Shown one piece after another: positions 8,324-63,989 of a DNA stretch of 64,000 bases. Below the pieces are notes generated by a model. That model searched no databases. It was not told the DNA's origin and worked only from the letters and a program-made list of their open reading frames with translations. The position numbers were made by a program, and so were the translations under genes. How positions within the stretch are numbered: the stretch's first letter is position 1; each line of letters starts with the position of its first letter. The stretch is from a virus: positions 19,536 to 83,535 of the IMG/VR virus record IMGVR_UViG_3300019360_000002, one strand, 5' to 3'.

Positions 8324-8337
8324 AATAGGAGATTGCG

Positions 8338-8628
8338 ATGCGCAATAACAGCTCGCCTGAAGAACACGCGCGCCGCGCCACCGAGGCAGAACGCAAGCTG
8401 GCAATCGAGGCCAGCTACTTCGACTCCTCGCGCATGGCGTACGCCGGCCTCACCCACTACGAGCTGTTTTGTCTGGAGCTGGGCGTGCTCGACGAGTGTT
8501 TGCGTTCAACAGGCAGCGTTACCGCCGTTGACGAAGCTCGCCTCGCCAGGTGGAACAAGGTCCGCGAAGTGATGCACATGAAGCTGAGACAAGCGCTCGG
8601 AAACAACGTCATGCCGGGACAGCGCTGA
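8338..8628 (+). CDS. Hypothetical protein
   Basis: AGGAG RBS; the ATG is the centre of a TTGCG-ATG-CGCAA palindrome. Confidence 0.6.
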   Translation: MRNNSSPEEHARRATEAERKLAIEASYFDSSRMAYAGLTHYELFCLELGVLDECLRSTGSVTAVDEARLARWNKVREVMHMKLRQALGNNVMPGQR

Positions 8629-8864
8629 TGCCCCGCCCGATCATCAGCTACGCGCCCCCGTCCCACCACGGCGTCACCACCCTCATGGCGGTAGGCAAGG
8701 ACGACGCACCCGAAGGAGACGCCATCTACTTCGACGCGGGCCGCGCCGTCAAGTACGCCGTCATCGGCGGCGCCGTGGGTGCGGTACGCGGCGGCCGGCG
8801 CACGACGAGCTACGCCCTCGTGGCCGCCGGTCTATCCCTCCTCGCCAACGCCTTCGGCAAATAA
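8628..8864 (+). CDS. Small membrane protein
   Basis: TGATG coupling; two hydrophobic segments. Confidence 0.6.
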   Translation: MPRPIISYAPPSHHGVTTLMAVGKDDAPEGDAIYFDAGRAVKYAVIGGAVGAVRGGRRTTSYALVAAGLSLLANAFGK

Positions 8865-8867
8865 TAG

Positions 8868-8896
8868 TTGACACGTCCCTGCCGCCCTGGCAGGCT
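8868..8896 (+). promoter_or_regulatory. Sigma70-like promoter
   Basis: TTGACA-17-CAGGCT. Confidence 0.5.
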
Positions 8897-8902
8897 CTCC
8901 TC

Positions 8903-8988: not shown

Positions 8989-9579
8989 ATGGGCTACGAA
9001 GCGACGCCACTACTCCGACCTCCTGCGATCGTTCGCGCCTTCGTGCCCGCTCTGCCTGGTAGCCTCTGGTCGCGCCTCGCCGTCGACTACGTGCGGGCTT
9101 TGCCGGACGTGATCCCGACGATGCTTCTCTCCCACCACTTGACGCCGCTGGCGATGCCGCCGTGGGACGAGTTCGCGCACCTGTTCTTCGGCACGGTGGG
9201 ATCGTGGTACGTGAACGTGGTTTTCGACGATCGCGACAAGCAGACCTTCGTCGAGCCCAGGATGATGCCGCCGCCCGAAGAGACCGAGTTCGCCATGGCG
9301 GAGGGCAGCGTGACCGCGCCGTGGCTGCCAGAGACCACACGCCCTCCGCTCTGCAAGTTCTGGACGGCTGGCGTCCCCAATATCCTCATCACCCGACCGC
9401 AGGGCAGGCCGCTCTCCACCGACGAGAAGACCATGATCGGCAAGTACGCGGCCGTGGTCACCGATATCGAAGCCGCCGTCGCCTCGATGGAGAAGGCGCT
9501 CGACCGACGCGTCTACACCTCACTGAACGTAGTCATAGAAGCCGAATTGCGATCCGCAACCGCCGGGGGTGCTCCGTGA
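8989..9579 (+). CDS. Hypothetical protein
   Basis: 196-aa ORF with high GC3; no SD in front. Confidence 0.65.
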   Translation: MGYEATPLLRPPAIVRAFVPALPGSLWSRLAVDYVRALPDVIPTMLLSHHLTPLAMPPWDEFAHLFFGTVGSWYVNVVFDDRDKQTFVEPRMMPPPEETEFAMAEGSVTAPWLPETTRPPLCKFWTAGVPNILITRPQGRPLSTDEKTMIGKYAAVVTDIEAAVASMEKALDRRVYTSLNVVIEAELRSATAGGAP

Positions 9580-11383: not shown

Positions 11384-11965
11384 GCTCCCCATGCCGTGGA
11401 GCAGGATCGTCAAGACCGAGGCGCTGTCCATCGACCTCGCCATGCACCAACTACGCGGAAAGCTTAGGGAAATGCGCAACGAGGCCGAAGCGGGCGTCCG
11501 TGGGGACGACGGCCTTACTGATTACAACCACGACTTCCCCCGCCGCTTCATCGCGCGCCTCATGCGCGTCGAGTTCGGCATCGACCTGGGCGACCCGCAC
11601 GACGAGAGTCGCTACCCGGTTTGGGTGTGGGAGATCACGGGCTGCCAGTAATTGCGAACCGCAAGGGGAGGACGACAGGACATGTTCATCTGCGACGAGT
11701 GCGAGAGACCGAGCCAGCCGTGCGAGACGATGGTGAAGAGAACCATCATCGTCAAGACCGTCTACCATCCCGAGCACACCTACAAGGACAAGCACAAGCG
11801 CACGATTCACGATCCCGGCGGCCAAGGCACGCAAATCGTCAAGGAGGGCAAGCTCTGCCAGAGCTGCGCCTACGGCGGCTCCGTTGACAAGCTCAAGGCG
11901 AAGTTCAACGCGCCCATCGACGAGGTGCGCCCGGCCAAGATGCCGACCTCGCAGCCGGTGCTCGC

Positions 11966-14418: not shown

Positions 14419-15165
14419 GTGATCGAACACCTGGCCATGCGGTGGTGGCACCTCGACCAGCTCTCGGTCTCCGACCCCGAGATGCTGTGGTCGAACGTCC
14501 ACGAAGACGACAAGATTGCGGTTCGCAACCGCGTCTATTCGCTTCTGAATGGAGAGATCCTCCACAAGGACATGTCGCCGGCCGACAAGCTGGTGGCCAT
14601 CGGCAGAAAGCGTTGTGACGAAGACCTCGACGAGTTCGCGCGCAAGATCGACGACATGCTGCGCGGCGAGCCCGGCTGGGACGAGAGCATCAACCGAGTC
14701 ACGCGCTGGAGCAACTGGTGGGACAGCCTGTATGGGCAAAGCTGTAAAACCGTGTATCCACCACAGCCTCAGATCCAACAGTGCACGCGCCTGTTCGGCA
14801 ACACCAACATCGGCAACCTCGTTATCTGCAACCTTCAGGTCGCTGGACAACTTTGCTGTGATCAGGCGGCCTACCTTCGCTACTGGTACGTCGACACCAC
14901 GGTCTCTGAAGCCAATGCTGATGAGCTGGAAGAGGCGCTGCACAACAGCGTAGCCACGCTCATTATCGGCAACCGTCTTGCGGCACAACTCCCCTTGTCG
15001 GACCTCTTTTATAGCGTCCATCCGATCGACGAGATCTTGCCGACCAGGCAGAACTTTGCTGTCGAGATCTCGTGCTTCGGCCGAGCCAACGACATTCTGA
15101 ATAGCGCACTTCACAGTCCCCTGCGCGTCCACCTCGAAGGCGCCCACAAGCTCACGGTCTACTGA
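14419..15165 (+). CDS. Protein with a C-terminal domain resembling a single-jelly-roll capsid protein
   Basis: WDSL...RLFGNTNIGNLVICNLQVAGQL..DQ...TLIIGNR...LPTRQNFAVEI...VHLEG pattern, recognised from memory only. Confidence 0.45.
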   Translation: MIEHLAMRWWHLDQLSVSDPEMLWSNVHEDDKIAVRNRVYSLLNGEILHKDMSPADKLVAIGRKRCDEDLDEFARKIDDMLRGEPGWDESINRVTRWSNWWDSLYGQSCKTVYPPQPQIQQCTRLFGNTNIGNLVICNLQVAGQLCCDQAAYLRYWYVDTTVSEANADELEEALHNSVATLIIGNRLAAQLPLSDLFYSVHPIDEILPTRQNFAVEISCFGRANDILNSALHSPLRVHLEGAHKLTVY

Positions 15166-18398: not shown

Positions 18399-19361
18399 AT
18401 GACCAAGAAGAAGCCCACAGCGCTGGTACCGGCCGCACCTGCCCCACTTGCGCCTCGCAATCTCTTCCGCGCGGACAAGCGCACGCCCGAGGAGAAGCTC
18501 GAAGACGCACTTGCGTCCCTGTGGCAGACCCTTGGTGAGAGCGCCGACACCGCCCGTGCGTACAAGTACGACTGGGGCGTGTGGACCAAGTGGCTCGCCG
18601 AGCACGGCGGTACACCGCTCGAAGCCCGTGCGGTCCACGTGCAGATGTTCTTAAACCACATGCGCGAGCGGGGCTTAGCCAAGTCGACGCGGGCGCGCAT
18701 GCTCTCGGTGCTGAAGCAAGTGTACGCCGCCTTGGTGGTCGGCGAGGCCCTCGACATGAACCCAGCGCGCGAGGCGAAGAACCTGCGCGTGGACTCGACG
18801 CCGAAGGCGCCGTGGCTCGTCGACACCGAGCTGGCCAAGCTCCTCGCCTACCCGAACCGCTCAACGTGGATTGACCGGCGCGACTGGCTCGTGCTCTGCG
18901 TCCTCATCGGCACGGGTTTGCGGCGCAAAAACGTCGCCACCTTGGCCGTCGAACAGCTCGTGCCCGCGCCCGGCGGCGGTATGGCCGCGAACGTCAAGGC
19001 CAAGGGCGGCAAGCAGGCGTCGATTCGCGTGCCGAGCTGGCTCGCCGAAGAGCTGCTTGCCTGGATTGCGGACCGCAAGATCGAGTCTGGTTCGCTATTC
19101 GACATCTCGCCGGGCACAGTCTACAACATCGTCAAGCGCACAGCGGCGCGGGTGGGGGTCTCGGTCGAGCGTTCGACGCCACACGCGATGCGTAGGTCGT
19201 TCACCACCGAGACTGGTAACCGAGGCGTGTCACTTGAGTCGCGGCAGGCGGCGCTTCTTCACTCAAACCGCGCTACCACCGAGATCTACGACAAGGCCGA
19301 CCGGGCATCGAGCCAGGCTCCTGGAGAGGTGCTCGCTAACCTCGTGGGGAAAAGAAAATGA
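18399..19361 (+). CDS. Tyrosine recombinase/integrase
   Basis: SAM-like core-binding domain; catalytic R (TGLRR), K (KGGK), HxxR (HAMRR), H (LLHS), Y (TEIY). Confidence 0.92.
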   Translation: MTKKKPTALVPAAPAPLAPRNLFRADKRTPEEKLEDALASLWQTLGESADTARAYKYDWGVWTKWLAEHGGTPLEARAVHVQMFLNHMRERGLAKSTRARMLSVLKQVYAALVVGEALDMNPAREAKNLRVDSTPKAPWLVDTELAKLLAYPNRSTWIDRRDWLVLCVLIGTGLRRKNVATLAVEQLVPAPGGGMAANVKAKGGKQASIRVPSWLAEELLAWIADRKIESGSLFDISPGTVYNIVKRTAARVGVSVERSTPHAMRRSFTTETGNRGVSLESRQAALLHSNRATTEIYDKADRASSQAPGEVLANLVGKRK

Positions 19362-20972: not shown

Positions 20973-21935
20973 GCTAAAGGCATGGCCAAGCCGAAACGCA
21001 GGGTGCTATCCATCCACGTCGGTGCGCAGGTAACGCTCGACTTGGTATGGCAAGACGACGTGTGCCTGGTGGTGTTTGCCGAGCGCGGTGCGCTTCAGAG
21101 ACGAACCATCGCGCCACTTCATCCCGATCAAGCCATGGAGGCGGCGCGGTTTTTAGCGCAAGTCAGTCCCCTGCCAACTACCGCTCCACCCCAAGACGAA
21201 GAGGAAGAAACCAAACCATGAGTCCACGAGGCGGGCATCTTCATCAGTGGTCGGCGCCAGGCACCAAAGCCGCCAAGTTCCGTGGCGGCGGCTTCAAGCG
21301 GGTGGCCGGTAACTACCCACCTGTCAGAACGCTGGCCGACATGAGCGAAGATGAGATCCAGGCCATCGAAAAGCGGTACAACATGCCGGTCATCCGGCCA
21401 ACAAGAAGAGTCGCGTTATGAGCACCAAGAAGAAAGCGGCTCGCGACGGGTTCTCTGGAAGCGGTAGGTTTAGGTCCGAGGATCACTACTACTCGGGCAC
21501 CAAACTCGATGAAGTCCTAGAGGACTTCATCGAGTTCACCGTCGATGAGCGCCAAGAGCTGGGCCGTTTCTCCGGCATTCGATCGACACGACGCGGCAAC
21601 ACGCGATAGACTTGCGGCTCGCAAGTGGAGGACAGCTATGGCAACCCTTGGAGAGATCAGGTGGTCGTGCGACGGCTGCAAGTACAAGATCGTCATCATC
21701 GACGCTCGCGGCCGTGAGGTGAAAAAAGTGCCCAGGACGTGCCCGTCCTGCGGTCGACCGACGAAGAAACCTGAGCCGAAATGACCGACCATCGCAAGCT
21801 ACAGCTCTATGCCACAGCCACGCGCCTGTCCAACATCTATGTGGATGCCGATCATGCAGGCAACAAGGCGCTGGCGGATCGCGCGCACCGCATCAAGTGG
21901 AAGATCTGGAATCGTGTGTCTCAGTGGCCTTCTGG

Positions 21936-24366: not shown

Positions 24367-25091
24367 TTCGTGAACACCCCGTCGTATAGCCCACGCAGAC
24401 TCTCGTTCTCCTCCAAGATCTCACGCACCTCTTCCACGTCGTCCGAGAGCGGCTCGCTGGCGTCCTCGGGCGACACCTCGTCCGAGACCTGCGATGACTC
24501 CGACCGCACCTCGTTCGCCTCGTCGCGGTCCTCGCGCTCTTCATCCATGGCGCGCTCGGACTCCAGCTCGCCGGGGCTCACGTAGCGGATGCCATTCGAC
24601 ACGCCGCGCCTGCGGCCGTTCTTGCCGTTCCGATAGCCGCTCAGGCCCGTCTTTCCGCCGGCCACGCTCGGCGCAGTCATCACAGGCTGGCCGTCGATGA
24701 GGCCGACGAGACCAGGCAGGTAGGTCTGGAGGAGCGATTGAAAAAGCGCAATGGCGGAGCCGATGAGGATGGGCTCCTGGTACTTGCGAGCCTTCTCCCA
24801 CTTGTTGGCGGCGTACCAGAGGCCGATGAGGGTCGCCAGGCTGCCGAGGGGGCCGAAGTGCCGGGCGAACCGACCACCGGCAAGGCGCTGGCCGAGGAGC
24901 ACCCGGCCGAACTTGCCGCCCAGGCGGGTGACGGCGTAGCCGCCGATGCCGGGGCCGACCATCATCGCCATGCCCGTGGCCATGTCCATGGCCTGGGACG
25001 CCGGGTTCTTGCGATGCGCAACCGGCTGTCTGCGCGCGTTACGGAACGACGCCAGCTTGCTTCGCGAGGCCGCAGACTTTTTCTTGGACAT
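24363..25091 (-). CDS. Membrane protein with a basic N-terminus (RKNP) and an acidic C-terminus; virion-like
   Basis: GGAG RBS; three hydrophobic segments; MSKKKSAASRSK...RKNP. Confidence 0.65.
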   Translation of the reverse strand: MSKKKSAASRSKLASFRNARRQPVAHRKNPASQAMDMATGMAMMVGPGIGGYAVTRLGGKFGRVLLGQRLAGGRFARHFGPLGSLATLIGLWYAANKWEKARKYQEPILIGSAIALFQSLLQTYLPGLVGLIDGQPVMTAPSVAGGKTGLSGYRNGKNGRRRGVSNGIRYVSPGELESERAMDEEREDRDEANEVRSESSQVSDEVSPEDASEPLSDDVEEVREILEENESLRGLYDGVFTN

Positions 25092-26820: not shown

Positions 26821-27464
26821 GGCTTACCTTTCAGCTTGCGAACCGCAAGCGGTGTCGAATCGAGGATGGTGAGCGTGCCGACGCTACGCGGCTCGTCCGT
26901 CCGCCACACCATCCAAGCATACGCGCAGTTGTCGGTCCTGCCGTTTACGAACTGCGGCCGGTTGGGCAGGACGAAGATGTCGGGGGTGTGCGCCTTGACC
27001 CACTCCACGCGCTCATCGCTCTCCAGAAACCCGACGCGCAGGAGCATGATGACGAACCTCGCCATCTGAAAGCTCCGCTCGATCACCTCCATCGCGATGC
27101 TGTACGGCGGGTTCGAGATGATCACGTCCCACCTGTCACGAGACATGCCGGGGTCGAAGGCGCCGCTAGTCACCTCCAGGAAGTCACCAATCACGATCTC
27201 TGACGGGTCTACGACCTCGGTGAGCGCGGGCAGGGCAAGCACGCGTAGCTCGATGGCCGACCACTCGGGCGCGTCGCAGTCGTTGTCGAGGCACGTGTCG
27301 TTGATGGTCTGGATGATGGCGCCGTCGCCAGCGCACGGCTCTAGCCACTTGCCGCCGAGGGGGATGTCGGCGGGAAGCTTTTCGAGAAAACGCACCACGG
27401 GCCAGGACGGCGTGGGGTAGTTGTCGTCCTTCTCGCGCTCTCCGCCTCGGTTAGTGGCGCTCAC
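26817..27464 (-). CDS. Amino (N6A/N4C) DNA methyltransferase
   Basis: DNYPTP, SAM motif LEPCAGDGAI, catalytic NPPY. Confidence 0.88.
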   Translation of the reverse strand: MSATNRGGEREKDDNYPTPSWPVVRFLEKLPADIPLGGKWLEPCAGDGAIIQTINDTCLDNDCDAPEWSAIELRVLALPALTEVVDPSEIVIGDFLEVTSGAFDPGMSRDRWDVIISNPPYSIAMEVIERSFQMARFVIMLLRVGFLESDERVEWVKAHTPDIFVLPNRPQFVNGRTDNCAYAWMVWRTDEPRSVGTLTILDSTPLAVRKLKGKP

Positions 27465-27694: not shown

Positions 27695-27696
27695 GT

Positions 27697-28951: not shown

Positions 28952-28991
28952 TTTCGTCCTCCCTTGCGAGTCGCAAGTTGTTATTTCGGTG

Positions 28992-39124: not shown

Positions 39125-39197
39125 GGATGGCTGTACGTGGCGGCACAAGCCGCTGCGATTTGCGGCTCGCAAGAGCCGATAGATGGAGAGGTGACCG

Positions 39198-42747: not shown

Positions 42748-42978
42748 TCACGCCGCCGTCTTCCACGGCTTGATCTTCTTCTTCACCACCTTCCAGTCCG
42801 GCCACGACTGAAGGGAAACCTTGCCGTCGGTCCATACCTCGATCACCGCCGCCAGGTGCAGGCTCGGGGTGCAGCTCTTGGCCACGAGCATGTGAACGTA
42901 CGCCTTGGTCTTGCCGAGAGCCTTGGCGGCGGTCTCGGCGTCGATCTCGTTTTCTTTGAGGAAACCCTCGAAGTCCAT
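42748..42978 (-). CDS. Cro/CI-like HTH regulator
   Basis: AETAAKALGKTKAYVHML...PSLHLAAVIEVWTDGKV. Confidence 0.82.
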   Translation of the reverse strand: MDFEGFLKENEIDAETAAKALGKTKAYVHMLVAKSCTPSLHLAAVIEVWTDGKVSLQSWPDWKVVKKKIKPWKTAA

Positions 42979-45580: not shown

Positions 45581-46993
45581 TTAGGGTGTCCAGGGCGAGT
45601 CAAAGCCGAGCGGCCGGTCGTTGTCGCTGTTGCGGCGGCGCCTTGGGTTTTCGCGCTCACCGCCGGCAGCGCCGAAGATCTCCTCCAGCATCTTGTCCTG
45701 CTTGACTTGATCGGGTGTCTTCAGGCGCTTCGCTGCGTACGTCGCTTCGAGAGCCGGGCGAATGTCACCAACTTCCCACGGGTCGACTTCCAGGAAGGCG
45801 AGAAACTCAAGCGCCTTGAGCACCTCGTCTTTTTTCATGGCGTCGTATCCGCCAACCTTAACCTTGTCTCGGTCCCAGCCTGGCAGTCGGTCGCCCTTGC
45901 CCTTTATCTGGCGAACACGCTCTACGTCTTGGTTGTGCATCTGCGCTTCGATGGTGAAGAGCGGCTTGCCAGACGGCCGGCGCAGGGAGAAGATCTTGGT
46001 ATCGCCTCGCTTGACCGCGCCCGCGTAGCCGTACTGCGTGTCGCCGACGCAGATGCCGAGCGCCGAGCCCTCGGCCTTCAGCTCCGACGAAAGTAGATCG
46101 ACCACGTAGAAGCCGTCCTTGAAGCGGTAGACGATTCGCTCCTCCGGCGGTGTCGCAGCCTCCTCGATGAGTTCCTCGCCGAGGGTTTCACGCGCCGCCG
46201 CCTCCACCTTGTCCCAGTTCACATCGGCCACGAAGTAGTAGCCGATGTCTCCGTAGTCGATTTGAAACTCGTACTTGGGGAACAGGTCGTCGAATTTGAT
46301 GCGGAGGTACGTATTATTGTTGATCTGCTTGACCGCTTCTTCGATCTCGTCCGCGAACATAGGATCGGTAAGGTTCGCCAGGTCCCTTTTGTCGAAGTAG
46401 ATGCCGCCGTGGTCGGAGACGCTTTCCCTGAAGATCCCCTCGCGGCTGTATTCGTTGCCGCTAATGTGGAAATCGTAGTTGTCGGCATCGCGAAGCGCTT
46501 CGTTGATGGCGCCTCGAACCTCGTCTGGAGACGGCGACTCGCCACCCTCGGGCATGAGCTTGTCGGTGAGCTGCTCGACTTCTTCTTGGATGCCTCGGTG
46601 ATCGATGATCTCGTCTTGTTCGCCGAGCCATTGGGCGAAGTAATCGGAGCCACTCTCGATCCACTGCTGTTTGGTGATTTCGTCCGGTTCGAGCAACCGC
46701 TTCTCGCGCTCGACAAAAGCGTCGACCAGCTCCTTCACTCGGGCCAGGCTTTCTGGGTCGTTTTCCAGGATGCATTCCTGGTCGTCGGCGTCGAGAGAGT
46801 TCCACTCCTCCTCGTTGAAGGCGTCGCGAGGCAGAGCCCGAACTTGTGCTCTGCTCATCCCCTCCACGTAGGCACCGCCCACGACCAGGGGTCCCGACCG
46901 CACCGCCGTCATCTTGGGCTTGCCCTCTTCGTCGCGCTCGAACAAGTCCGGGTGCTCACCGATCTTGGGGTTCACGCACTTGTTCTTGCGCAT
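45581..46993 (-). CDS. Acidic protein with a C-terminal PcfJ-like domain
   Basis: ELKAEGSALGICVG...IFSLR...KPLFTIE...QIKGKGDRLP; basic RENPRRRR tail; ATG sits inside a TTGCG-ATG-CGCAA site. Confidence 0.65.
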   Translation of the reverse strand: MRKNKCVNPKIGEHPDLFERDEEGKPKMTAVRSGPLVVGGAYVEGMSRAQVRALPRDAFNEEEWNSLDADDQECILENDPESLARVKELVDAFVEREKRLLEPDEITKQQWIESGSDYFAQWLGEQDEIIDHRGIQEEVEQLTDKLMPEGGESPSPDEVRGAINEALRDADNYDFHISGNEYSREGIFRESVSDHGGIYFDKRDLANLTDPMFADEIEEAVKQINNNTYLRIKFDDLFPKYEFQIDYGDIGYYFVADVNWDKVEAAARETLGEELIEEAATPPEERIVYRFKDGFYVVDLLSSELKAEGSALGICVGDTQYGYAGAVKRGDTKIFSLRRPSGKPLFTIEAQMHNQDVERVRQIKGKGDRLPGWDRDKVKVGGYDAMKKDEVLKALEFLAFLEVDPWEVGDIRPALEATYAAKRLKTPDQVKQDKMLEEIFGAAGGERENPRRRRNSDNDRPLGFDSPWTP

Positions 46994-47001
46994 CGCAATT
47001 C

Positions 47002-48356: not shown

Positions 48357-48624
48357 GGTGCACCTTGGTCGCAGCGAAGGCTGCCGTAAGTACGAGGACG
48401 AGGAGGATCAGCACTGCGGTTGCGAGGCGCAAGGCGGTCCTGTCCGGCGGCCGGTAGGTGGTGGGTGCACCGTCGAGCCAGGTGGTCTCGGACATGTGGA
48501 AAGCGAGCGTCCGCGAGAGGATCTGCTCGCGGGTCTTCTTGGATGCCTTGCGTTCCTCGTACGACAGGTTTTCGGACATGATTGCCCTCCAGATTGGTGG
48601 TGCGGTGTTGATTATGCAGCACGG

Positions 48625-54342: not shown

Positions 54343-54729
54343 TCATGTTTGTGTCTCCTCTCCTAGATCCTTCCACAGTTTCTTGCCCAGCCGAAATGCT
54401 GCCGTGTTGCCGTTCGCGCACGCCTCGTCGCCGTCGAAGCCTTGCAGGTACGAGATCACCCAGTCGAGGTCTACGCCGAGCGCCTCGGCGACCATCTCTT
54501 CGAGAAGGAACTCGCTCGTGAGCACGGCGGTGGATTCCTTCTCGGAGAGCAGGCACGCACACACCGGGCACACCTTCGGCGTCTTGGCCATCTTGCCGGC
54601 GGTCTTGGTGCAGCCGTCGTAGGTGCCGCAGGCGCCCTGGCACAGGCGCTTGCCCTGCTTGCCGACCTTCTTGATTGCGGCTCGCAAGTAATTGTCGGCG
54701 GCGAGGTCGGAGTAGCTCGCTTCGCTCAC
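54343..54729 (-). CDS. Zn-finger hypothetical protein
   Basis: CQGAC...CPVC; GTGA/ATGA coupling. Confidence 0.6.
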   Translation of the reverse strand: MSEASYSDLAADNYLRAAIKKVGKQGKRLCQGACGTYDGCTKTAGKMAKTPKVCPVCACLLSEKESTAVLTSEFLLEEMVAEALGVDLDWVISYLQGFDGDEACANGNTAAFRLGKKLWKDLGEETQT

Positions 54730-55470: not shown

Positions 55471-56457
55471 CTACTCGGCGGCCTTCTTGCCCTTCTTGCC
55501 CTTCTTGCCGCCCTCGCCGGCCGCCCACTCCTTCGCCTTGGCCGCCGCCTCCTTCGCCTTCTCCTTGGCGTTGGCCTCGGCCGCCTTCACGAAGTCCTTC
55601 CAGTCCGAGCCCATGCGGCCGAGCGCGATGGAGCCCTGGGCGAAGCGCAGGGTGTCGAACACGCCCTGCACGTAGTCGGTGCGCTTGACCTCCTTCTCGT
55701 CGGTCTCGTCGACGATCTGGACCATGGCCTTCAGGATCTTCGTCCCCGGGCGGTCCGACTTGCCCGCCTTCGCCTTGGCGGCCTTGCGTGCCTTCGACTT
55801 GCCCGACCGGCCGCCCGAAGCGATCGCCTTGAGCGCCTCGTCGACGCCCTCCTCCTGCGTGTCGAAGTCGTACTTGCCGGGCTTGTCGTCCTCGCCCTCG
55901 ACCCACTTGGCGGTCTTGGCCAGGGTTTCCACCGTGTCATCGGCGAGCTTGCCCGACTTCCACGCCTTCTTGAGCGCCGGGCCGCACTTCTCCAGGGCGT
56001 CGAGCTTGCGCGACACCCAGGTCTCCGACTTGTGGAGCGCCTTGGCGATGGTCTTCTGGTTGTCGCCCATGAGCTTCAGCTCGGCGCACTGCACCGCGAT
56101 CTCGTACGAGGAGAGCGCGTCGCGCAGGATGTTGTCGGCGAGGGCGTTGTAGCGCGCGTCCTTGAGCGTGTCGCCGGAGACGAAGTGGCACGGCACGCCC
56201 TGGGAGAAGCCGTTGGCGCGGCCTTCCTCGATGAGCAGGGTGATCGCGGCCTCGCGGCGGAAGCCGCCCACGAGCACCATGATCTCCTCGCCGTCCTTCT
56301 GCGTCTTCCACACCTGGAGCGGGTTCAGAAGCCCCCGCGCCTCGATGTCGTCGGCGAGGTTCTTGATGTCCTCCAGCTTCTCGCGCGGGTTCTTGAAGCC
56401 GACCTCCTCGCCAGGGGTCAGCTCGTCGAGCTTGATGGTGTCGTAGTTTGAATCCAT
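55471..56457 (-). CDS. ParB/KorB-like CTPase-HTH DNA-binding protein
   Basis: NPR...LADDIEARGLLNPLQV...LVGGFRREAA; DNILRDALSSYE; HTH QKTIAKALHKSETWVSRKL; Lys/Ala-rich tail. Confidence 0.85.
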   Translation of the reverse strand: MDSNYDTIKLDELTPGEEVGFKNPREKLEDIKNLADDIEARGLLNPLQVWKTQKDGEEIMVLVGGFRREAAITLLIEEGRANGFSQGVPCHFVSGDTLKDARYNALADNILRDALSSYEIAVQCAELKLMGDNQKTIAKALHKSETWVSRKLDALEKCGPALKKAWKSGKLADDTVETLAKTAKWVEGEDDKPGKYDFDTQEEGVDEALKAIASGGRSGKSKARKAAKAKAGKSDRPGTKILKAMVQIVDETDEKEVKRTDYVQGVFDTLRFAQGSIALGRMGSDWKDFVKAAEANAKEKAKEAAAKAKEWAAGEGGKKGKKGKKAAE

Positions 56458-56492
56458 GTCACGTCCTCCGTTGGTTGCGGTTCGCAATCGGG

Positions 56493-56801: not shown

Positions 56802-57443
56802 CTCGTCGTCCTCCACTCACGGGTGTACCTGAGAGACTTGCGGCTTGCAACTCTTTTTTGCCTTGTTCTTGAAGATTCTGATGCGTGTGTGCCCCCTGGC
56901 CGTTTTGCCTTGTGCAAGGTTTCTTTCGCGACGTTTCTTGTGGTTAGTGCGGCTGTTTCGTGCCTTGGCGACGAGGTACGCCTCGTAGTCCATGGTGCCT
57001 ACCTGGCTCGAAAGCGTCCGACACTGAAAGCGTTTCCCTTCGGGGGCGCTGGCATCGAACCTGATGCCGAGATTCCCGCAGGAGGCGAAGATCATGTCCC
57101 CGACGGAGAACACCCTCAGGTCGTCGAGCGCGGCGGCCAGCACTACTTGCTCTCGACCTTGGTGGTGATGCGTGCGAGCATCCCCGCCGCTTCCTTGTGC
57201 TTGGGGACATCGGTCCAGCACCCGGCAGGCACAAGCCCACGCCACCTGGGCAGACCGGTGACCTTGCTCTTTGGGAGTTTTTGTCTCTTGCCCATGTCGT
57301 CCTCCAGTGATGGCCGAGCACCCCGCGCTGTCTGTCTTGAGCATCACCGCCCGAGAGTTGCTCCGAGTCGCTGTGCTCGGAGTGCGGCGATTCCACTTGC
57401 GGCGAAGAAGACAGACAGCGCGCGGCACTCGGCCGCCGTACCG

Positions 57444-58551: not shown

Positions 58552-58593
58552 ATACTACTTGCGAGTCACAAGCTAGGCAAGAAAAATTTGTTG
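58552..58593 (-). promoter_or_regulatory. Promoter carrying both motif classes
   Basis: TTGCCT-17-TAGTAT; TTGCGAGTCACAA in the spacer (58559-58571); CAAGAAAAATTTGTTG at 58578-58593. Confidence 0.65.
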
Positions 58594-59584: not shown

Positions 59585-59616
59585 GTTGTCCTCCTGGTTG
59601 GTGTTTGATCCGTTGC

Positions 59617-59823
59617 TTAGGGCGTGAAACACATCCACTGGGGCCGCGTGTCGATCATCGCTTCGAGGTGGCACTGGGCGGGCGCCTCGCACGTCCGCTT
59701 GGGCAGGCACAACGAGGCGTCCGCTTCGCATCCCGATAGGCAGCACGGAGCACCCGGCACGCCGCACACCTCGGCGTCGTCACCGCAGCCGATCAAGAAA
59801 ATGGCGAGGAACAAAAAACGCAT
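59617..59823 (-). CDS. Small Cys-rich lipoprotein
   Basis: Signal MRFLFLAIFLIG-C; several more Cys. Confidence 0.6.
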   Translation of the reverse strand: MRFLFLAIFLIGCGDDAEVCGVPGAPCCLSGCEADASLCLPKRTCEAPAQCHLEAMIDTRPQWMCFTP

Positions 59824-59827
59824 GAGA

Positions 59828-62800
59828 TTACTTCTTTCCGGGGCGCACTTGGCGCTCCCCGTTGAACTTTGTCTCGGGGGCGAATGAATCGCCTGCCTTT
59901 TTCTCGCACTTGTCGAGTGCTCGCTTGAGCGCCTCGTAGAGCGAGTTTCCCGAGCCCACGTAGTGGCCGAGGTCTTGACGGCTGTCGAGGGAGATCGTCC
60001 ACAGATTGCCGGTCGCAACTGCCGTCATCATGAGACCGTGCTTGGTGAGGAGCTTGTCGAGATCCTCGATGCGACTTTCGGGCGTGAGAAACATGTTCAC
60101 CCTCCCAGGCCAGGCATAGGGCCGCTGATCTCCATGTAGTGTACTGAACCGGTACGAGACAGGCCATCGCGAAGAAGCGCCACGGCGCGCGAGTCCCCCA
60201 CCACCGTGAGAACAGCCAGCTCGCCCGTGAGCACGAACGAGATGTCGATGGGCGACGGAAAGATCGAGCTTCCCATCAAGATGTCGAGGGTGTGGGTGTA
60301 GATGATGCGCGTCCCTTTTGCGACCAGACGAAGTGTCCCGGTCACGGCCGCACCTGGAAGGTCGTGGCCTTGGAGACCTCGGCCGAGACCTCCTTTTTGA
60401 GAGCCTCGGCCGCGTACTCGACCAGCTTGAGTAGCGGGTCCTCCAGGATGTCGGCCACGGTCTGCTCGTAGTCCTCCTGGGCTGTCTCGTCCATCTTGGC
60501 GTACTCGGACTCCTCCAGGTACACCGAGATCTCGACCTTGTACATGAGGCGCATCTAGCGGTGGCCTCCCTGTCCGCCACCACGACCCCGCCAGTACGAG
60601 GCGTGCATGGTGATCGAACGGCTCGTACCGGCCGCCCCGGCGCACTTGGCGCTCCGGCACCGGTAGGTGCGATAGGTGCAGCTATCGCACTCCTGCACGT
60701 CCATCTTGGACACGAGGAAGTAGTGCTTGCAGCACGCGCACCGTGCGTGTTTGGTCTGGCTCACGGGTCGTTACTCCTTTTTCAGGTTCGTAGAAATAAG
60801 TGGCTTCTCGGCAGCAACACTTCGCTCCAGTTGTGTCGCCAGCGACTCTTGCTCGGCGATCCAGCGAGCCAAAACCTCGGGGAGGGCGCGCACCACGTCG
60901 CGCAGCGTCAGGGCAGGGCAGGTGCGCCGACCGAACCCGTGCGCGTTGGAGGCGTAGTGATTGTTGCTTCCGCACCAATCGCGGTGCTCTTGCTCGCTTG
61001 GCGCGAGGAGCATACCGTCAATCGTCGTGCGGTTGGTCTCGACGCGGCGCGGATAGGCCCCGTTGCCCCACTGCGATACCTCGCAGTTGAGCTTGTCGCG
61101 GATTACGAGGACGTGGCCAGCGACCCTCAGCTCCGTACCGGCGGGTACTTCGCGCAGAGTCTCGCAGAGGTGATCTGCCAGCGCCTCTCGTGCGTCACGG
61201 ATGCGCCCGAGTGCCATCTTGATGGTTTCGCTCACAGTCTCGGTCGAGGTTTTCACTTTTGACATGTCACTTCCCCTCTTTCTTCTCGCCCTTGCAGTGC
61301 TTGATATGCTGATGCACGCCTTGTGGCCGGAAGAAGACTCGGCCGCACTTGTGGCACGACGCCTTGACCTCCCGGGTCTTCGGCGTCTTCTTCGCCTTCT
61401 TCTTCGGCTTGCGAGTCGCAAGCCCCGGGGAATTCAGGATGGTGTCGAGCGAAACCCCGGCTTGCGCCTCGAAGATTCCCGGACCGCGCATGATCGTAAG
61501 CTGCGAAACGGCCGCGATGATCACCGCGCCGCCGACCTTGTACATGTACGTTTTCATCATTTGCGTCCTCCAGGACTGCGAAAGTCTACCAGGCAACAAA
61601 AATTTGTCTAGCGCGAGTAGTTTTCGTACAGGCGCTCGGCGCTCGTATCCCCATAGACAGCCGGCTGGTCCTTGATCCAGTGCAAATGGCCAATGACCAC
61701 GCCGCGAACGCTCGTTGGAATCGACAAGCAGAACTCCTTGACCGAGTTGAAGTGGAAGTAACCCACTCCGTTTATAGTGTTACGAATCGCCTCGGCTGCC
61801 GCGCGCCACGTCGTCTTGGGCAAAACGACGTATTCGTACGGGCGATTGCCCTTGCGCGGCACCAGACGCAACTCGTGCCTGTCAAACAGGATCTCCGACA
61901 CATGAAGTACGGCGTCGTACCACTTGTGAAACAGTTCATCGCGAGCCTCGTCCTGAGCCTTGTTCTGCTCATCTTCGCCCTCGACGCCCCTAGCGGACTC
62001 CAAGTAGTAATCGACGTTATAGTCGTCAAGCTTATCCCATGAGATGAGCCTGAACATCTCGGCTAGCTCGTCGATGTTTATCTTGTGAGTCGCCATCTTC
62101 AGACCTCTCGCGTGACGCGATAGTTTCCCTCGTAGTCAGTGCTCCACTCGGCCACAAGACCTGAGACGAGGTTTTTGCCTCGAAGCGTTGTGCGCGTACC
62201 AACGGTTGCGACTGATTCTTTGAGGGAGTTCATGGTTGCCTCCTACGTGTGGATCGACCAGTCCGGCTTCTCATCCGACCCGTGATTGATGACGCCGCCG
62301 TTCATGCTTCGTATACCTTTCGGCGTGCGAATGTCGAAGTAGTAGCCGGCCGAATCACGGTGTAGGTTGACCACGGCCGACTCCCACACGTTGAACGTGG
62401 TGTTGCGTGCGATACGCTTGAGCTGGTCCAGCTTGTCACGGAGCCCTTGGTCGGTAGCGGCTCGCGTGAGCGCGTCGGTGCCGTGCGGGTCTACGTTCAC
62501 GCAACCCTTGGCTTGTCCGTAGCGTTCGAGTAGGCGCCGCCACGTCCGCTTGGGGATCTCGACCTCGTGCTCCGTCCCCTTGGGGGCACGATCCAAGTGC
62601 TTGAAGTGCCACCTTGCGAGTCGCAAGATGATCTTCTGTACCTGATACGGCATCGAGACAACCCGGAAAGGGATGTCGGCGCGTCCCGTCGTGGCTTGGG
62701 GCATCTCCCAGTCGAAGAAGGTCCACTGTTCGCCGTCGTGCTTGCACAGGTGGTAGCCGTCTACCGACATCGCTTGCTTGCCCGCGACCACGTGTTTGAA

Positions 62801-63989
62801 CTCGGCGCGCGTCCAGTAGAAGTACACCGACGCCATCGGCACTGGCGGACGCGGGTCATCGCGGGGGAGGTTGTACTCTGGGGTGTGCGCCCGCAGGATC
62901 ACGTAGTCGGCGCCATCCGCCTTGCGGAAGGTGAAAATGACGGTCTCGAAGTCGAGCACGACTACACGAGCCCCGCGCGACGAAGAAGGTCAAGCGCCTT
63001 CGCAGCACTTGCCGGACGCTCCAGCGCCAGCTGGTCTTCGCGAGGCGCGTCTTTGATCGCGTCTCCACAAGCGTTGCTGATAGCCCACCAACGCCTGGCG
63101 GCGATCTTGGTGCCGTCTGCCCACGACGGTGGAGGACCCATCGCTGCGTACGCCACGCATGTGTTACGGTTGTGATAGTCGAGGACTTCGGCTTCTGCAT
63201 CCGATAGCACCCGCGACAGCTCTTCGTCGGTTAGCTTCGTCTCCATCGTCACGCCTCCTTGTAGAGCCGCTTCGCGTTGAACTGATCGCGCGTGCCCAGG
63301 TTCCACTTTTGGATCGTGCGCCCGTAGTTGTTCACGCCCAGCTCGTAGTCGTACTCGGTGCGCCGACCCCAGTCGGCCTTGCGCATGTACATCGTGCCAA
63401 CCGTCTCCATCGGGCGAGTGAACACGTCTGCGGACACGTGCAGCTTGTCGAGCACGTCGTTCACCACGTTGTGGAACGCCACCCAGTCGTCCCACTCCAA
63501 AAAACGCGTCGTGCGCTTCTTGCGCCCGTTCAGTTCGCACGGGCCGGGGTGCTGGCCGCAGTACGGCTTGGGCGTGACGAGGCGCACCGAACGCACCTCA
63601 ATGAGCTTGCCGCAGTTGGTCAAGTCGCAAGTGAAGCGACCGTCCTTGCGAATCGCAAGCGCAAGCGCATCGAAGACGCACTCACACAGCGAGCCGATCG
63701 CCGCGTGCGGCGCAGGTTTGATGGTGTAGGGCATGGGCTACTCCTTTTTCTCCCGAGGCAGACCGATGGCGTCCCACACCGCGTCGGGAATGAACGCGAC
63801 GCGTTTGTGACAAACATCCTCTACTGTTTCGCCCGCGTTGAGCATTCGACGCACCGCCTCTTCTCTGAGAACGCACCACCCTCCGGTGCGGTAAGGGTTC
63901 TCGGAGGGGGTTTCGTCCTTGACGGAGATGAAGATGATGCCTGCTTCCATGTGCGCAGCGCACTCGTCGCACGGCTTCTTGTCGAACAC
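59828..63989 (-). other. Cluster of about 11 small leftward hypothetical early genes
   Basis: Tightly packed minus-strand ORFs (e.g. 60342-60554, 60555-60764, 61608-62096, 62243-62959, 63249-63734, 63738-63989); operator CAACAAAAATTTGTCT at 61594-61609. Confidence 0.65.

What the first reader, a model, noticed from the sequence alone, without database searches (positions are those of the whole stretch)
8333..63658. Genome-wide 13-bp palindrome TTGCGA-N-TCGCAA, a candidate target array for the ParB-like protein
Seen: 20 exact TTGCG-N3-CGCAA copies, every one with A as the first or T as the last central base. Near-copies occur at 1223, 2068, 4984, 6922, 12823, 15849, 16771, 23349, 25203, 29986, 32814, 41862, 43171, 49632, 51166, 56838 and 58559, giving roughly one site per 2 kb in both genes and gaps. 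A rough estimate at ~65% GC gives under 0.1 exact copies per 64 kb by chance. One copy (56475) is directly upstream of the RBS of the ParB-like gene, and no parA is visible in the window. Known analogies: the dispersed 13-bp KorB operators of IncP plasmids and E. coli matS sites. Inference: a viral genome-organising, silencing or packaging system in which a CTP-dependent clamp or another protein loads at many sites.
Basis: partly seen in the sequence, partly recalled or inferred. Interest (0 to 1): 0.82.

Follow-up and report, generated by a model that had tools for sequence, protein, structure and literature searches.

The report
Virus-wide palindrome array, likely ParB sites
A newly seen 83.5-kb bacterial virus carries 31 evenly scattered copies of one short DNA palindrome, written even into its genes, which most likely serve as docking sites for the virus's own ParB/KorB-type DNA clamp protein.

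Summary
TTGCG-N3-CGCAA occurs 24 times in the window, not 20, against 0.2 in shuffles, and 31 times in the complete 83,535-bp virus record. Nineteen copies lie inside genes, against 0.8 expected from codon-preserving shuffles, and they use rare codons.

I did not find a host-style abundance: 401 sampled Pseudomonadota genomes had at most 32 copies each. The host is unknown.

Sites sit at matching positions in related metagenome contigs. One fills the 17-nt spacer of a conserved promoter-like element heading the operon that contains the ParB-like gene.

That gene belongs to the ParB/Noc/KorB family and keeps the GxRR and NxQR nucleotide motifs. No ParA was found.

The site is a 6-1-6 palindrome like the KorB operator. 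Best reading: loading or operator sites of an orphan viral ParB/KorB-type clamp (confidence about 0.5). The pairing is circumstantial, and a Cro/YdaS-like protein is a real rival.

The parts
8333..8345 (.). exact site TTGCGATGCGCAA; its ATG is the start codon of gene 8338-8628
9547..9559 (.). exact site inside gene 8989-9579 (+)
11652..11664 (.). exact site, intergenic: directly after the stop of 11391-11651 and just upstream of the GGAGGA and ATG of 11682-11969
14516..14528 (.). exact site inside gene 14419-15165 (+)
18448..18460 (.). exact site inside the tyrosine-integrase gene 18399-19361 (+)
19066..19078 (.). exact site inside the integrase gene; centre GAC, one of two copies with neither A6 nor T8
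21612..21624 (.). exact site, intergenic, just upstream of the GGAGGA and ATG of 21638-21784
25009..25021 (.). exact site inside gene 24363-25091 (-)
26836..26848 (.). exact site in the 3' end of the methyltransferase-like gene 26817-27476 (-), 36 nt upstream of the next gene's start
28964..28976 (.). exact site, intergenic, directly upstream of the GGAGGA and ATG of 28646-28951 (-)
31188..31200 (.). exact site inside gene 30949-31533 (-)
34299..34311 (.). exact site inside the primase-polymerase gene 32190-34973 (+); centre GGG, no A6 or T8
35581..35593 (.). exact site inside the exonuclease-like gene 35034-36566 (+)
37153..37165 (.). exact site inside gene 36570-37286 (+)
38013..38025 (.). 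exact site inside gene 37505-39124 (+)
39160..39172 (.). exact site, intergenic, 25 nt upstream of the start of 39198-39686
42018..42030 (.). exact site inside the weakly RuvC-like gene 41971-42519 (-)
46986..46998 (.). exact site overlapping the start codon of the PcfJ-like gene 45581-46993 (-)
48420..48432 (.). exact site, intergenic, 63 nt upstream of the M23 peptidase gene 47760-48356 (-)
54675..54687 (.). exact site inside gene 54343-54729 (-). The identical 13-mer sits at the matching codons in L006, L007 and L008, whose protein is 55% identical. Encoded as Leu-Arg-Ala-Ala with the rare codons TTG, CGA and GCA.
56475..56487 (.). exact site 17 nt upstream of the ATG of the ParB-like gene. 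L010 has an exact copy 22 nt upstream of its parB. L006, L007 and L008 have a one-mismatch copy at the matching place.
61409..61421 (.). exact site inside gene 61267-61560 (-); L007 has a one-mismatch copy at about the matching codons (47-49)
62614..62626 (.). exact site inside gene 62243-62959 (-)
63646..63658 (.). exact site inside gene 63249-63734 (-)
58559..58571 (.). one-mismatch site (TTGTGACTCGCAA on the - strand). It fills the 17-nt spacer between TTGCCT and TAGTAT upstream of gene 57444-58517, the first gene of the run that ends in parB. The same arrangement is seen in L007 (exact site) and L009 (one mismatch).
56838..56850 (.). one-mismatch site (TTGCA variant) upstream of the ribosome-binding site of gene 56493-56801 (-); the same variant sits at the matching place in L006, L007, L008 and L009
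43171..43183 (.). one-mismatch site in the divergent intergenic region beside the Cro/YdaS-like gene
55471..56457 (-). orphan ParB/Noc/KorB-family gene (328 aa, P0001): GGFRR and DNIQR motifs, KSETWVSR helix, Lys-rich C-terminal tail; candidate binder of the motif
42748..42978 (-). 76-aa Cro/YdaS-like HTH candidate; rival binder
   Evidence: no Pfam hit; Atlas feature score 0.95, a lead only

Best explanation
The 13-bp palindrome (C/A)TTGCG(A)-N-(T)CGCAA(G/T) is a protein-binding site kept by selection at about one copy per 2.7 kb over the whole viral genome. It sits in the short gaps between genes. Inside genes it sits wherever the protein sequence allows [L/I/V]-A-x-R-[K/N] or L-R-x-A.

The most likely binder is a dimer of the virus's own orphan ParB/Noc/KorB-family protein (55471-56457). 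By analogy with KorB, Noc and ParB, this protein would nucleate on each site through its HTH, close into a nucleotide-dependent clamp and slide onto flanking DNA. A site every 2-3 kb would then let it cover the whole genome.

One site lies in the spacer of the promoter-like element heading the operon that contains parB, and another lies just before parB. This points to autoregulation, and more widely to KorB-like repression from dispersed operators.

Shown: the array, its enrichment, its selection at DNA level, its conservation by position, and the family membership of the protein.

Inferred: that this protein binds these sites, that a nucleotide switch is used, and the downstream role (silencing, organisation or tethering).
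For: Array and selection
- 24 window copies and 31 genome copies, against about 0.2 and 1 in controls.
- It is by far the top 5+5 inverted repeat at any spacer from 0 to 8.
- In-gene copies: 19 observed against 0.82 in codon-preserving shuffles. They are built from rare codons: TTG 10%, GCA 10%, CGA 9%, ATT 12% of their amino acid.
- The two halves are symmetric: position 6 is A in 58% and never T, and position 8 mirrors it. This fits a dimeric DNA binder.
- Spacing is more even than random: CV 0.69 against 0.96 +/- 0.16, P = 0.02, smallest gap 618 bp.

Conservation
- 5 of 6 sites (up to one mismatch) in the syntenic part of L007 lie at positions matching sites in this genome. One is an identical in-gene 13-mer at 55% protein identity.
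- The motif fills the 17-nt spacer of a TTGCCT/TTGCCA ... TAGTAT/TACTCT element in all 3 genomes where that region is available: own, L007 and L009.

The protein
- PHROG ParB-like, E 3e-18.
- The family profile hits Noc 7OL9 (2e-16), Spo0J 1VZ0 (1e-14) and KorB 8QA8 (4e-5), with GxRR aligned to GERRxRA and NIQR aligned to NLQR.
- G65, R67, R68 and N109 are invariant in 14 homologues.
- The Pfam KorB HTH domain scores 21.3 bits, just under its cut-off of 22.3.
- Pfam at E < 0.01 gave no other recognised HTH protein: 40 predicted proteins were scanned singly and the other 94 together, leaving one of the 135 predicted genes unscanned.

Links between protein and motif
- An exact site lies just upstream of parB here and in L010 (48% identical ParB).
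- G001 is an otherwise unrelated 58-kb phage fragment. Only ParB, plus one marginal hit, of 135 proteins is shared. Its ParB homologue has the same KSETWVSR helix. Its top palindrome, AGTTTGC-N5-GCAAACT in 9 copies, contains the same TTGC-N5-GCAA core.
- The KorB operator core TTTAGCGGCTAAA is likewise a 13-bp 6-1-6 palindrome (PMC11790492, passages read).
Against: - No binding data exist, and no protein-DNA model could be made.
- The relatives carrying the motif (L006-L010) were fetched by their ParB gene, so their co-occurrence is not independent.
- L006, L007 and L008 are near-copies of one sequence.
- The G001 palindromes are mostly intergenic, fold at -10 to -16 kcal/mol and have A and T tracts on their flanks. 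They may be bidirectional terminators, so the shared core could be coincidence.
- On this protein alone, Pfam ParB_N scores 16.2 bits against a cut-off of 26.3, and the KorB domain is just under its cut-off.
- A second DNA-binding candidate exists, the Cro/YdaS-like protein, with a near-copy in its intergenic region.
- Most of the roughly 135 proteins have no detectable family, so an unrecognised binder is possible.
- Canonical ParB sites are clustered and few. A site every 2.7 kb inside genes has no characterised ParB precedent that I found.
Confidence: 0.5

Rival explanations
1. The sites are operators of another virus-encoded regulator. The leading candidate is the 76-aa Cro/YdaS-like HTH protein (42748-42978); an unrecognised protein is also possible. 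It would act at many dispersed sites, as the cluster A mycobacteriophage repressor does at stoperators or the P1 C1 repressor does at its scattered operators.
For: - The 76-aa protein resembles YdaS/Cro HTH clusters: Atlas feature score 0.95 with 189 shared features, a lead only.
- It sits at a divergent gene junction whose intergenic region holds a one-mismatch site at 43171.
- A palindrome fits a small dimeric HTH protein.
- One site lies in a promoter spacer, the classical operator position.
- Repressors with many genome-wide sites are described for mycobacteriophages (PMC9283540, abstract seen in the listing).
Against: - Only one near-copy, and no exact copy, lies in the protein's own intergenic region.
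- No Pfam hit.
- G001 has a related palindrome and a ParB homologue but no tblastn match to this protein at E <= 1e-3.
- Stoperators are asymmetric and oriented with transcription (abstract); these sites are symmetric.
- 19 of 31 sites lie inside genes.
Confidence: 0.2
2. The motif is read by a host protein or belongs to a host genome-wide signal, such as a host nucleoid, segregation, repair or uptake factor. The virus copies it to recruit or evade that factor.
For: - The host is unknown, so its genome could not be counted.
- Genome-wide, evenly spaced short motifs are typical of host systems. The examples Chi, uptake sequences and matS are recalled, not taken from a call.
Against: - No sampled genome comes near the viral density of 371 per Mb.
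- In 401 Pseudomonadota genomes the maximum was 32 copies in 6.8 Mb, similar to the reversed-pattern control.
- Five genomes from five phyla held 1-17 copies each.
- In 151 Actinomycetota genomes the 12-base extended form occurred at most 3 times per genome, against 12 in the virus.
- Of 99 IMG/VR loci hit by the 14-base form, only 1 had two or more core motifs.
Confidence: 0.1
3. The motif is the target of a viral DNA-modifying or DNA-cutting enzyme, such as the 219-aa methyltransferase-like protein, one of the HNH or PD-(D/E)XK nucleases, or a nicking enzyme. The sites would then mark epigenetic positions or programmed nicks.
For: - A methyltransferase-like gene lies at 26817-27476: phrog_799 E 7e-41, with weak PrmC, KsgA and TaqI similarity.
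- Several HNH families and 'restriction endonuclease' PHROG hits are present.
- The genome has a nucleotide-metabolism cluster with ThyX, dCTP deaminase-like, nucleoside deoxyribosyltransferase and NUDIX proteins.
- Palindromes are typical targets of type II enzymes (general knowledge).
Against: - Targets of restriction or modification enzymes are usually avoided or neutral in a phage's own genome, not enriched about 25-fold and conserved by position (general knowledge).
- No Tet/JBP dioxygenase is present at E <= 1. The ParB-activated thymine dioxygenase system of PMC13229309 (abstract and section 8 read) therefore does not apply. Those ParBs also lack a DNA-binding domain.
- The 219-aa methyltransferase-like protein has no Pfam hit.
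Confidence: 0.08
4. The motif acts in RNA as a 5-bp stem with a 3-nt loop, for example as an mRNA stability or processing signal placed before ribosome-binding sites.
For: - Several intergenic copies lie directly upstream of the GGAGGA ribosome-binding site.
- Single sites with their flanks fold at -3.7 to -8.5 kcal/mol.
Against: - Compensatory double variants are at background, 1-2 copies each.
- Among the nine one-mismatch copies changed at the position 4/10 pair, those that give a C.A mismatch in the transcript (6) outnumber those that give a U.G wobble (3) (my count from the oriented list).
- The loop and flank preferences are symmetric on both strands.
- 19 of 31 copies are inside genes, in two reading frames.
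- The stem sequence is invariant rather than covarying.
Confidence: 0.03

Closest known systems
KorB and its OB operators on IncP plasmid RK2
   Same: - The protein is a ParB-family CTPase-fold protein with an HTH. The family profile hits KorB 8QA8 at 4e-5 and 1R71 at 1e-3, and the Pfam KorB domain scores 21.3 bits.
- The site is a 13-bp 6-1-6 palindrome dispersed over the replicon. The OB core is TTTAGCGGCTAAA in PMC11790492 (passages read).
- At least one site lies within a promoter-like element.
- The KorB mechanism, a clamp that slides from distal sites to silence promoters, is described in that paper's abstract and main text.
   Different: - No ParA/IncC partner, and no KorA-like lock has been identified.
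- The replicon is a virus, not a plasmid.
- There are 31 sites, most of them inside coding sequence, about 2.7 kb apart. RK2 has about a dozen mostly promoter-associated sites (number recalled, not taken from a call).
- The site sequence is unrelated.
- The sequence match to Noc and Spo0J is stronger than to KorB.
Noc and its NBS sites in Bacillus subtilis
   Same: - The best solved-structure match of the family profile is Noc 7OL9, E 2e-16; the NCBIfam Noc model hits at 2e-7.
- Noc is an orphan ParB paralogue without its own ParA.
- Its palindromic sites are scattered over a whole replicon rather than clustered.
- Noc nucleates on NBS and spreads with CTP (abstracts seen in the listing).
   Different: - Noc is chromosomal and binds the membrane through an N-terminal amphipathic helix (recalled). 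This protein's N-terminus is acidic (MDSNYDTIKLDELTPGEE) and it has a Lys-rich C-terminal tail instead.
- NBS is 16 bp (abstract); this site is 13 bp.
- The score is far below the Noc model cut-off: 30.5 bits against 315.
Canonical ParABS centromeres (parS), including plasmid-prophage systems such as P1 and N15
   Same: A ParB-fold protein with conserved GxRR and NxQR motifs, palindromic sites, and a mobile element. N15 is recalled to have a few dispersed centromere palindromes (not taken from a call).
   Different: - No ParA in the genome.
- No [LFI]G[KR]G[LFI] ParA-binding motif in the N-terminus. The motif definition comes from PMC12704722 (passages read); the sequence is.
- Sites are not clustered (smallest gap 618 bp) and number 31.
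Stoperators of cluster A mycobacteriophages
   Same: A 13-bp class of site present in tens of copies across a phage genome, within and between genes, and bound by one phage regulator that affects transcription genome-wide (PMC9283540, abstract in the listing; the 13-bp length and copy numbers are recalled).
   Different: Stoperators are asymmetric, oriented with transcription and bound by a monomeric repressor (abstract). The present sites are symmetric palindromes with no orientation bias, and the candidate binder is a ParB-family protein.

Membership tests
ParB/Noc/KorB CTPase-fold DNA-binding proteins (the protein 55471-56457) | N-terminal ParB domain with the GxxRxxA (GERRxRA) nucleotide-binding motif | tested here: met
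   GGFRREA is aligned to Noc AGERRWRA and Spo0J AGERRYRA in the profile search. G65, R67 and R68 are invariant in 14 homologues. PHROG ParB-like E 3e-18; TIGR00180 E 3e-10 but under its cut-off. Caveat: Pfam PF02195 on this protein alone scores 16.2 bits against a cut-off of 26.3. Five of 14 listed homologues carry a precomputed PF02195 hit.
ParB/Noc/KorB CTPase-fold DNA-binding proteins (the protein 55471-56457) | ENLQR-type motif of the nucleotide pocket | tested here: met
   ADNILR here, and DNIQR in the family consensus, is aligned to ENLQRE of Noc and Spo0J. N109 is invariant and R112 is in at least 90% of homologues. The acidic residue is D instead of E.
ParB/Noc/KorB CTPase-fold DNA-binding proteins (the protein 55471-56457) | Central helix-turn-helix DNA-binding domain | tested here: met
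   The profile alignment runs through the HTH region of Noc, Spo0J and KorB 1R71. Pfam KorB domain: residues 132-184, 21.3 bits against a cut-off of 22.3. S144, W147, V148, S149 and R150 are invariant.
ParB/Noc/KorB CTPase-fold DNA-binding proteins (the protein 55471-56457) | CTP binding and hydrolysis, and clamp closure on the cognate site | not testable with these tools
   This needs biochemistry. PMC12704722 (passages read) shows that the fold can bind CTP, ATP or GTP, so the nucleotide cannot be assumed.
Canonical ParABS partition system | Adjacent ParA ATPase and an N-terminal ParA-binding motif in ParB | tested here: not met
   No AAA_31 match in the whole genome at E <= 1, while all 14 control genomes matched. 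No ParA-type family appears in the Pfam scans of 134 of the 135 predicted proteins. The N-terminus lacks [LFI]G[KR]G[LFI] (sequence; motif from PMC12704722).
Canonical ParABS partition system | One or a few clustered parS sites near the par genes | tested here: not met
   31 sites over 83.5 kb; smallest gap 618 bp; spacing more even than random.
KorB-type dispersed operator array | 13-bp palindrome with two 6-bp half-sites and one central base, in many copies over the replicon | tested here: met
   The symmetrised matrix shows TTGCG fixed, position 6 A in 58% and never T, and a free centre. There are 31 copies. The OB core for comparison comes from PMC11790492.
KorB-type dispersed operator array | Sites bound by the ParB-family protein and repressing promoters, with a KorA-like locking partner | not testable with these tools
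   The only indirect evidence is a site in the 17-nt spacer of a conserved promoter-like element. No KorA-like protein was recognised. The promoter scan found nothing there (the element matches 8 of 12 positions, below that tool's threshold).
Stoperator-type repressor sites | Asymmetric site with orientation tied to the direction of transcription | tested here: not met
   The site is a symmetric palindrome. The A6-only and T8-only forms both occur in genes of one strand.
Structured RNA hairpin element | Base pairs kept through compensatory changes; strand-specific | tested here: not met
   Compensatory variants occur in 1-2 copies each. Among the nine copies changed at the position 4/10 pair, one-sided changes giving C.A in the transcript (6) outnumber U.G (3) (my count from the oriented list).
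Host genome-wide motif (uptake, Chi or matS-like) | Comparable or higher density in the host chromosome | tested here: inconclusive
   The host is unknown. High density was not found in the genomes sampled: 401 Pseudomonadota, 151 Actinomycetota and 5 genomes of five phyla. The samples include the unpublished genomes G393 and G458, which had 3 and 1 matches.

The most novel reading that the evidence does not exclude
A virus has written a loading site for its own orphan ParB/KorB/Noc-type nucleotide-switch clamp into its DNA about every 2.7 kb, using rare codons inside genes. The whole genome, rather than a centromere or a few promoters, could then be coated by sliding clamps. This would be a 'centromere everywhere' design. 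It could silence the whole genome during a carrier or plasmid-like state, compact or tether the DNA (possibly to a membrane if the virion is of the unusual, non-tailed type suggested by another reader), or shield it from host defences. The virus has no detectable terminase, portal or HK97 capsid by Pfam or PHROGs, so the clamp array could even take part in genome encapsidation.
Probability: 0.3. Interest if true: 0.85.

Novelty: new variant of a known kind. Interest (0 to 1): 0.62.

Why it matters
Orphan ParB-fold proteins are common on phages and other mobile elements, but their roles are mostly unknown (PMC12704722, abstract and passages read).

Here the likely DNA target can be read straight from the genome. 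There are 31 near-identical sites, conserved by position in relatives, with clear signs of selection at DNA level. This gives a ready experimental system of one 328-aa protein and one 13-bp duplex. It can test whether viral ParB-type clamps work genome-wide, which nucleotide they use, and what coating a whole viral genome achieves.

It also shows how strongly a DNA-level signal can shape codon choice in a virus. The rare codons TTG, CGA, GCA and ATT are fixed at the sites.

If the binder proves to be another protein, the array is still one of the densest palindromic site arrays noted in a phage genome.

Tried and rejected
- Close relatives in isolated phages: none. Megablast of 10 kb found no match. 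tblastn of the DNA polymerase gave at best 28% identity. tblastn of ParB gave only two weak partial hits.
- Single-protein scans of IMG/VR with ParB and the DNA polymerase found nothing.
- The ParB alignment A1 found one distant IMG/VR locus (L005), six metagenome loci and nothing in genome contigs.
- The 78.7-kb and 19.4-kb contigs that carry P0006 and P0002 would have been the best test.
- Complex prediction was not used. It takes no DNA, so it cannot test the key claim.
- The look-up of sequencing runs: none was listed.
- The ParB-activated thymine-dioxygenase idea from PMC13229309 was rejected. There is no Tet_JBP match at E <= 1, and those ParBs lack a DNA-binding domain (abstract).
- RNA hairpin and terminator readings were rejected. 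The terminator-like scan was at shuffle level, 17 found against 15.9 expected.
- The sigma-70 scan gave 1 site against 2.3 expected and did not flag the conserved TTGCCT-17-TAGTAT element. Its promoter status rests only on conservation in three genomes.
- Literature search for the motif strings, six spellings matched anywhere: 0 papers.
- Supplementary files were not consulted. The SI trees of PMC12704722 might place this ParB clade.
- The gene map is my own crude codon-bias caller. Starts may be off by a few codons, which affects the in-gene versus intergenic labels of sites near gene ends.

Full report
**1. What is in the sequence**

The pattern TTGCG-N3-CGCAA occurs 24 times in the 64-kb window. 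Dinucleotide-preserving shuffles give a mean of 0.20 and a maximum of 2, and 0 of 100 reach 24.

The window is bases 19536-83535 of an 83,535-bp IMG/VR virus record. The record has 123-bp direct terminal repeats, is rated complete, and has 63% GC. The whole genome has 31 copies, and the reversed-pattern control has 1.

I scanned all 5+5 inverted repeats with spacers of 0 to 8. TTGCG with spacer 3 stands alone at 31 copies. The next best, CTTGC with spacer 5 (12 copies) and TGCGA with spacer 1 (10 copies), are the same motif extended outward or inward. Unrelated repeats reach 7 at most.

In fact 22 of 24 window copies do, and 29 of 31 genome copies do: 7 have both, 22 have one, 2 have neither.

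**2. It is selected at the DNA level**

I made a rough gene map of 135 genes covering 86% of the genome. On this map 12 of 31 copies are intergenic or overlap a start codon, and 19 lie inside genes.

I ran 300 shuffles that keep every protein sequence and each gene's codon usage.
- In-gene copies averaged 0.82 with a maximum of 5, against 19 observed.
- One-mismatch copies were 28 observed against 16.4 +/- 2.2, with intergenic DNA left untouched.

In-gene copies use only two of the three reading frames. Thirteen read [L/I/V]-A-x-R-[K/N] and six read L-R-x-A. None uses the frame that would need Cys.

The copies rely on codons that are rare in this genome: TTG is 10% of Leu, GCA 10% of Ala, CGA 9% of Arg and ATT 12% of Ile.

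The two halves are symmetric. Position 6 is A in 58% of half-sites and never T, position 8 mirrors it, and the flanks prefer C/A and G/T. The consensus is therefore a 13-bp 6-1-6 palindrome, TTGCGA-N-TCGCAA, often extended to 15 bp.

An RNA hairpin is unlikely.
- Compensatory double variants occur only 1-2 times each.
- The most common single change is C to T at position 4, seen in 9 of 28 one-mismatch copies.
- In transcript orientation, that change gives a C.A mismatch 6 times and a U.G wobble 3 times (my count from the oriented list).

Spacing is somewhat more even than random. The CV of the gaps is 0.69 against 0.96 +/- 0.16 (P = 0.02). The smallest gap is 618 bp. The largest, 9.7 kb, holds three one-mismatch copies.

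**3. It belongs to the virus lineage, not to any genome I could sample**

The 14-base extended form gave 99 IMG/VR stretches. Each held a single site, and only 1 of the 99 loci had two or more core motifs. Four of those viral records, searched whole, had 1, 2, 1 and 1 copies.

In genome contigs the first 120 stretches were single hits scattered over many phyla.

Counts of the core motif or its 12-base extended form in bacterial genomes:

| Sample | Pattern | Result |
|---|---|---|
| Five genomes of five phyla | core motif | 1-17 copies each |
| 401 sampled Pseudomonadota | core motif | at most 32 per genome; similar to the reversed control |
| 151 sampled Actinomycetota | 12-base extended form | at most 3 per genome |
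| This virus | 12-base extended form | 12 |

The virus has 371 core copies per Mb. The densest sampled genome has about 7 per Mb.

The host remains unknown, so the host-motif idea is weakened but not excluded. No sequencing run was listed.

**4. Conservation in relatives**

ParB homologues at 37-77% identity exist in metagenomes. Six metagenome loci and one IMG/VR locus could be fetched. L006-L010, whose ParB is 72, 72, 72, 64 and 48% identical, all carry the exact motif in 2, 4, 2, 2 and 1 copies within 3-11 kb.

In the syntenic stretch shared with L007, 5 of its 6 sites (up to one mismatch) lie at positions that match sites here:
- Window 54675 matches L007 9634. The 13-mer is identical inside a gene whose protein is 55% identical.
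- Window 56475 matches L007 8334.
- Window 56838 matches L007 8029. The same TTGCA variant is also in L009.
- Window 58559 matches L007 6473 and L009 2045.
- Window 61409 matches L007 5602.

The 58559 site is the most informative. In all three genomes where the region is available, the 13-mer fills the 17-nt spacer between a TTGCCT or TTGCCA hexamer and a TAGTAT or TACTCT hexamer. This element lies upstream of the 357-aa gene that heads the same-strand run of genes ending in parB. That is the position of a classical operator. The consensus promoter scan did not flag the element, which matches 8 of 12 positions.

**5. The candidate binder**

The gene at 55471-56457 encodes a 328-aa protein. The evidence for its family:
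- It matches PHROG ParB-like families, best E 3e-18.
- It matches TIGR00180 at 3e-10 and the Noc model at 2e-7, both under their cut-offs.
- It matches the Pfam KorB HTH domain at 21.3 bits, against a cut-off of 22.3.
- A profile of 14 homologues hits solved Noc (2e-16), Spo0J (1e-14), ParB (about 1e-10) and KorB (4e-5 and 1e-3).
- In that profile alignment, GxRR lines up with GERRxRA and NIQR with NLQR.
- G65, R67, R68, N109 and the helix S-x-x-W-V-S-R are invariant.

The genome has no ParA. The N-terminus lacks the ParA-binding motif defined in PMC12704722. The protein is therefore an orphan ParB, a class that paper reports as common on mobile elements.

I scanned 134 of the 135 predicted proteins against Pfam: 40 singly (with some re-checked) and the other 94 together. 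One gene spanning the window edge was left out. No other recognised HTH protein appeared at E < 0.01. However, the 76-aa protein at 42748-42978 resembles Cro/YdaS HTH proteins by language-model features, with a score of 0.95, which is a lead only.

**6. An independent but ambiguous co-occurrence**

The IMG/VR record G001 is 58 kb, estimated 27% complete, and 52% GC. Of this virus's 135 proteins it shares only ParB (29% identity, E 3e-20) and one marginal hit.

Its ParB has the same KSETWVSR helix. Its top palindrome is AGTTTGC-N5-GCAAACT in 9 dispersed copies, against at most 4 for unrelated repeats. This palindrome contains the same TTGC-N5-GCAA core. Two copies are exact TTGCG-N3-CGCAA.

Six of the nine lie between my crude ORFs of at least 90 codons, and the other three lie inside one. 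Four were folded and give -10 to -16 kcal/mol. Their flanks are A and T tracts. They may therefore be bidirectional terminators. I count this as weak support.

**7. Most likely mechanism**

Shown:
- a selected, position-conserved, symmetric 13-bp site array;
- an orphan ParB/Noc/KorB-family gene with intact nucleotide-pocket motifs;
- sites at and before the operon that holds this gene.

Inferred: the ParB-like dimer nucleates on each site, closes as a nucleotide-dependent clamp and slides. This is how KorB acts from its 13-bp OB operators (PMC11790492, abstract and passages read) and how Noc acts from its scattered NBS sites (abstracts). A site every 2-3 kb would give cover over the whole genome.

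The downstream role is open. It could be autoregulation and wider silencing, genome organisation, or tethering. I put the ParB pairing at about 0.5. That the array is a binding-site array for some sequence-specific protein I put at about 0.85.

**8. Rivals**

- Another viral regulator, such as the Cro/YdaS-like protein: 0.2.
- A host factor or host-type motif: 0.1.
- A target of the viral methyltransferase-like protein or of a nuclease: 0.08.
- An RNA hairpin: 0.03.

The ParB-activated thymine dioxygenase system (PMC13229309; abstract and section 8 read) does not fit. No Tet/JBP gene is present.

**9. Novelty**

Dispersed palindromic sites for ParB-family proteins are known from KorB and Noc. 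Genome-wide repressor sites are known in phages as stoperators.

What is new here is the combination. An orphan ParB-family protein sits in a very divergent virus. The palindromic array is about ten times denser per kb than my recalled figure for RK2. Most of the array is inside coding sequence, and it is kept in place by rare codons.

I found no paper containing the motif strings. It has not been noted on other DNA.

**10. Limits**

- There are no binding data, no structure and no host.
- The relatives were ascertained through ParB.
- L006, L007 and L008 are near-duplicates.
- My gene starts are approximate.
- Supplementary files were not read.

Noticed in passing
window 52122-53717 (-): A 531-aa protein with a Cas12f1-like/TnpB TNB domain (Pfam E 7e-6) and transposase PHROG hits.
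   Followed up: no
whole genome; virion-side genes at G000 2937-27858 (L012 and window 1-8323): No terminase, portal, HK97-type capsid or tail family was found in the Pfam scans of 134 of the 135 predicted proteins, or in PHROG searches of 20 proteins singly plus the other 94 in a survey that lists only its 25 best families. The only structural hit is a 43-residue match to a 'virion structural protein' PHROG in gene 6956-8323.
   Followed up: partly
window 25472-28605 (-) and other genes not located: A nucleotide-metabolism set: ThyX (27697-28605); a 219-aa methyltransferase-like protein (26817-27476, phrog_799 E 7e-41, no Pfam hit); and, at positions I did not determine, dCTP deaminase-like, nucleoside deoxyribosyltransferase and NUDIX proteins. 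The viral DNA may carry a modified base.
   Followed up: partly
one of the 94 proteins of alignment A2 (position not determined): A Tad2-like (Thoeris anti-defence 2) domain, Pfam E 2e-25, and a WYL domain, E 2e-5, are present somewhere in the proteome.
   Followed up: no
window 18399-19361 (+): A tyrosine recombinase/integrase with an N-terminal SAM-like domain (Pfam E 5e-14 and 1e-11) that itself contains two exact motif sites. A temperate or plasmid-like lifestyle is possible.
   Followed up: partly
G000 14456-15127, 15943-16245, 32261-32662 and others: There are many homing-type nucleases. Three HNH PHROG families each hit 2-4 members of the 94-protein survey. Two places match a 'restriction endonuclease' PHROG. 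A weak LAGLIDADG hit lies in G000 6616-8076.
   Followed up: no
window 58649-59638 (-): A 329-aa pentapeptide-repeat protein (Pfam E 1e-64) lies between genes whose homologues in L007 flank only a roughly 200-bp gap with no pentapeptide match. It therefore looks like an insertion in this virus. In L009 a pentapeptide-like stretch lies downstream of parB instead.
   Followed up: partly
G001 (IMGVR_UViG_3300032731_001278), 9 places from 4437 to 56140: An unrelated phage fragment carries nine copies of the 19-bp palindrome AGTTTGC-N5-GCAAACT with A and T tracts on its flanks. Six of the nine lie between my crude ORFs, and the four copies folded give -10 to -16 kcal/mol. They are either terminators or sites of its own ParB homologue.
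   Followed up: partly
many gene starts, e.g. window 11665-11684, 28952-28963, 56458-56474: An extended ribosome-binding motif, GGAGGAC(G), precedes many start codons.
   Followed up: no
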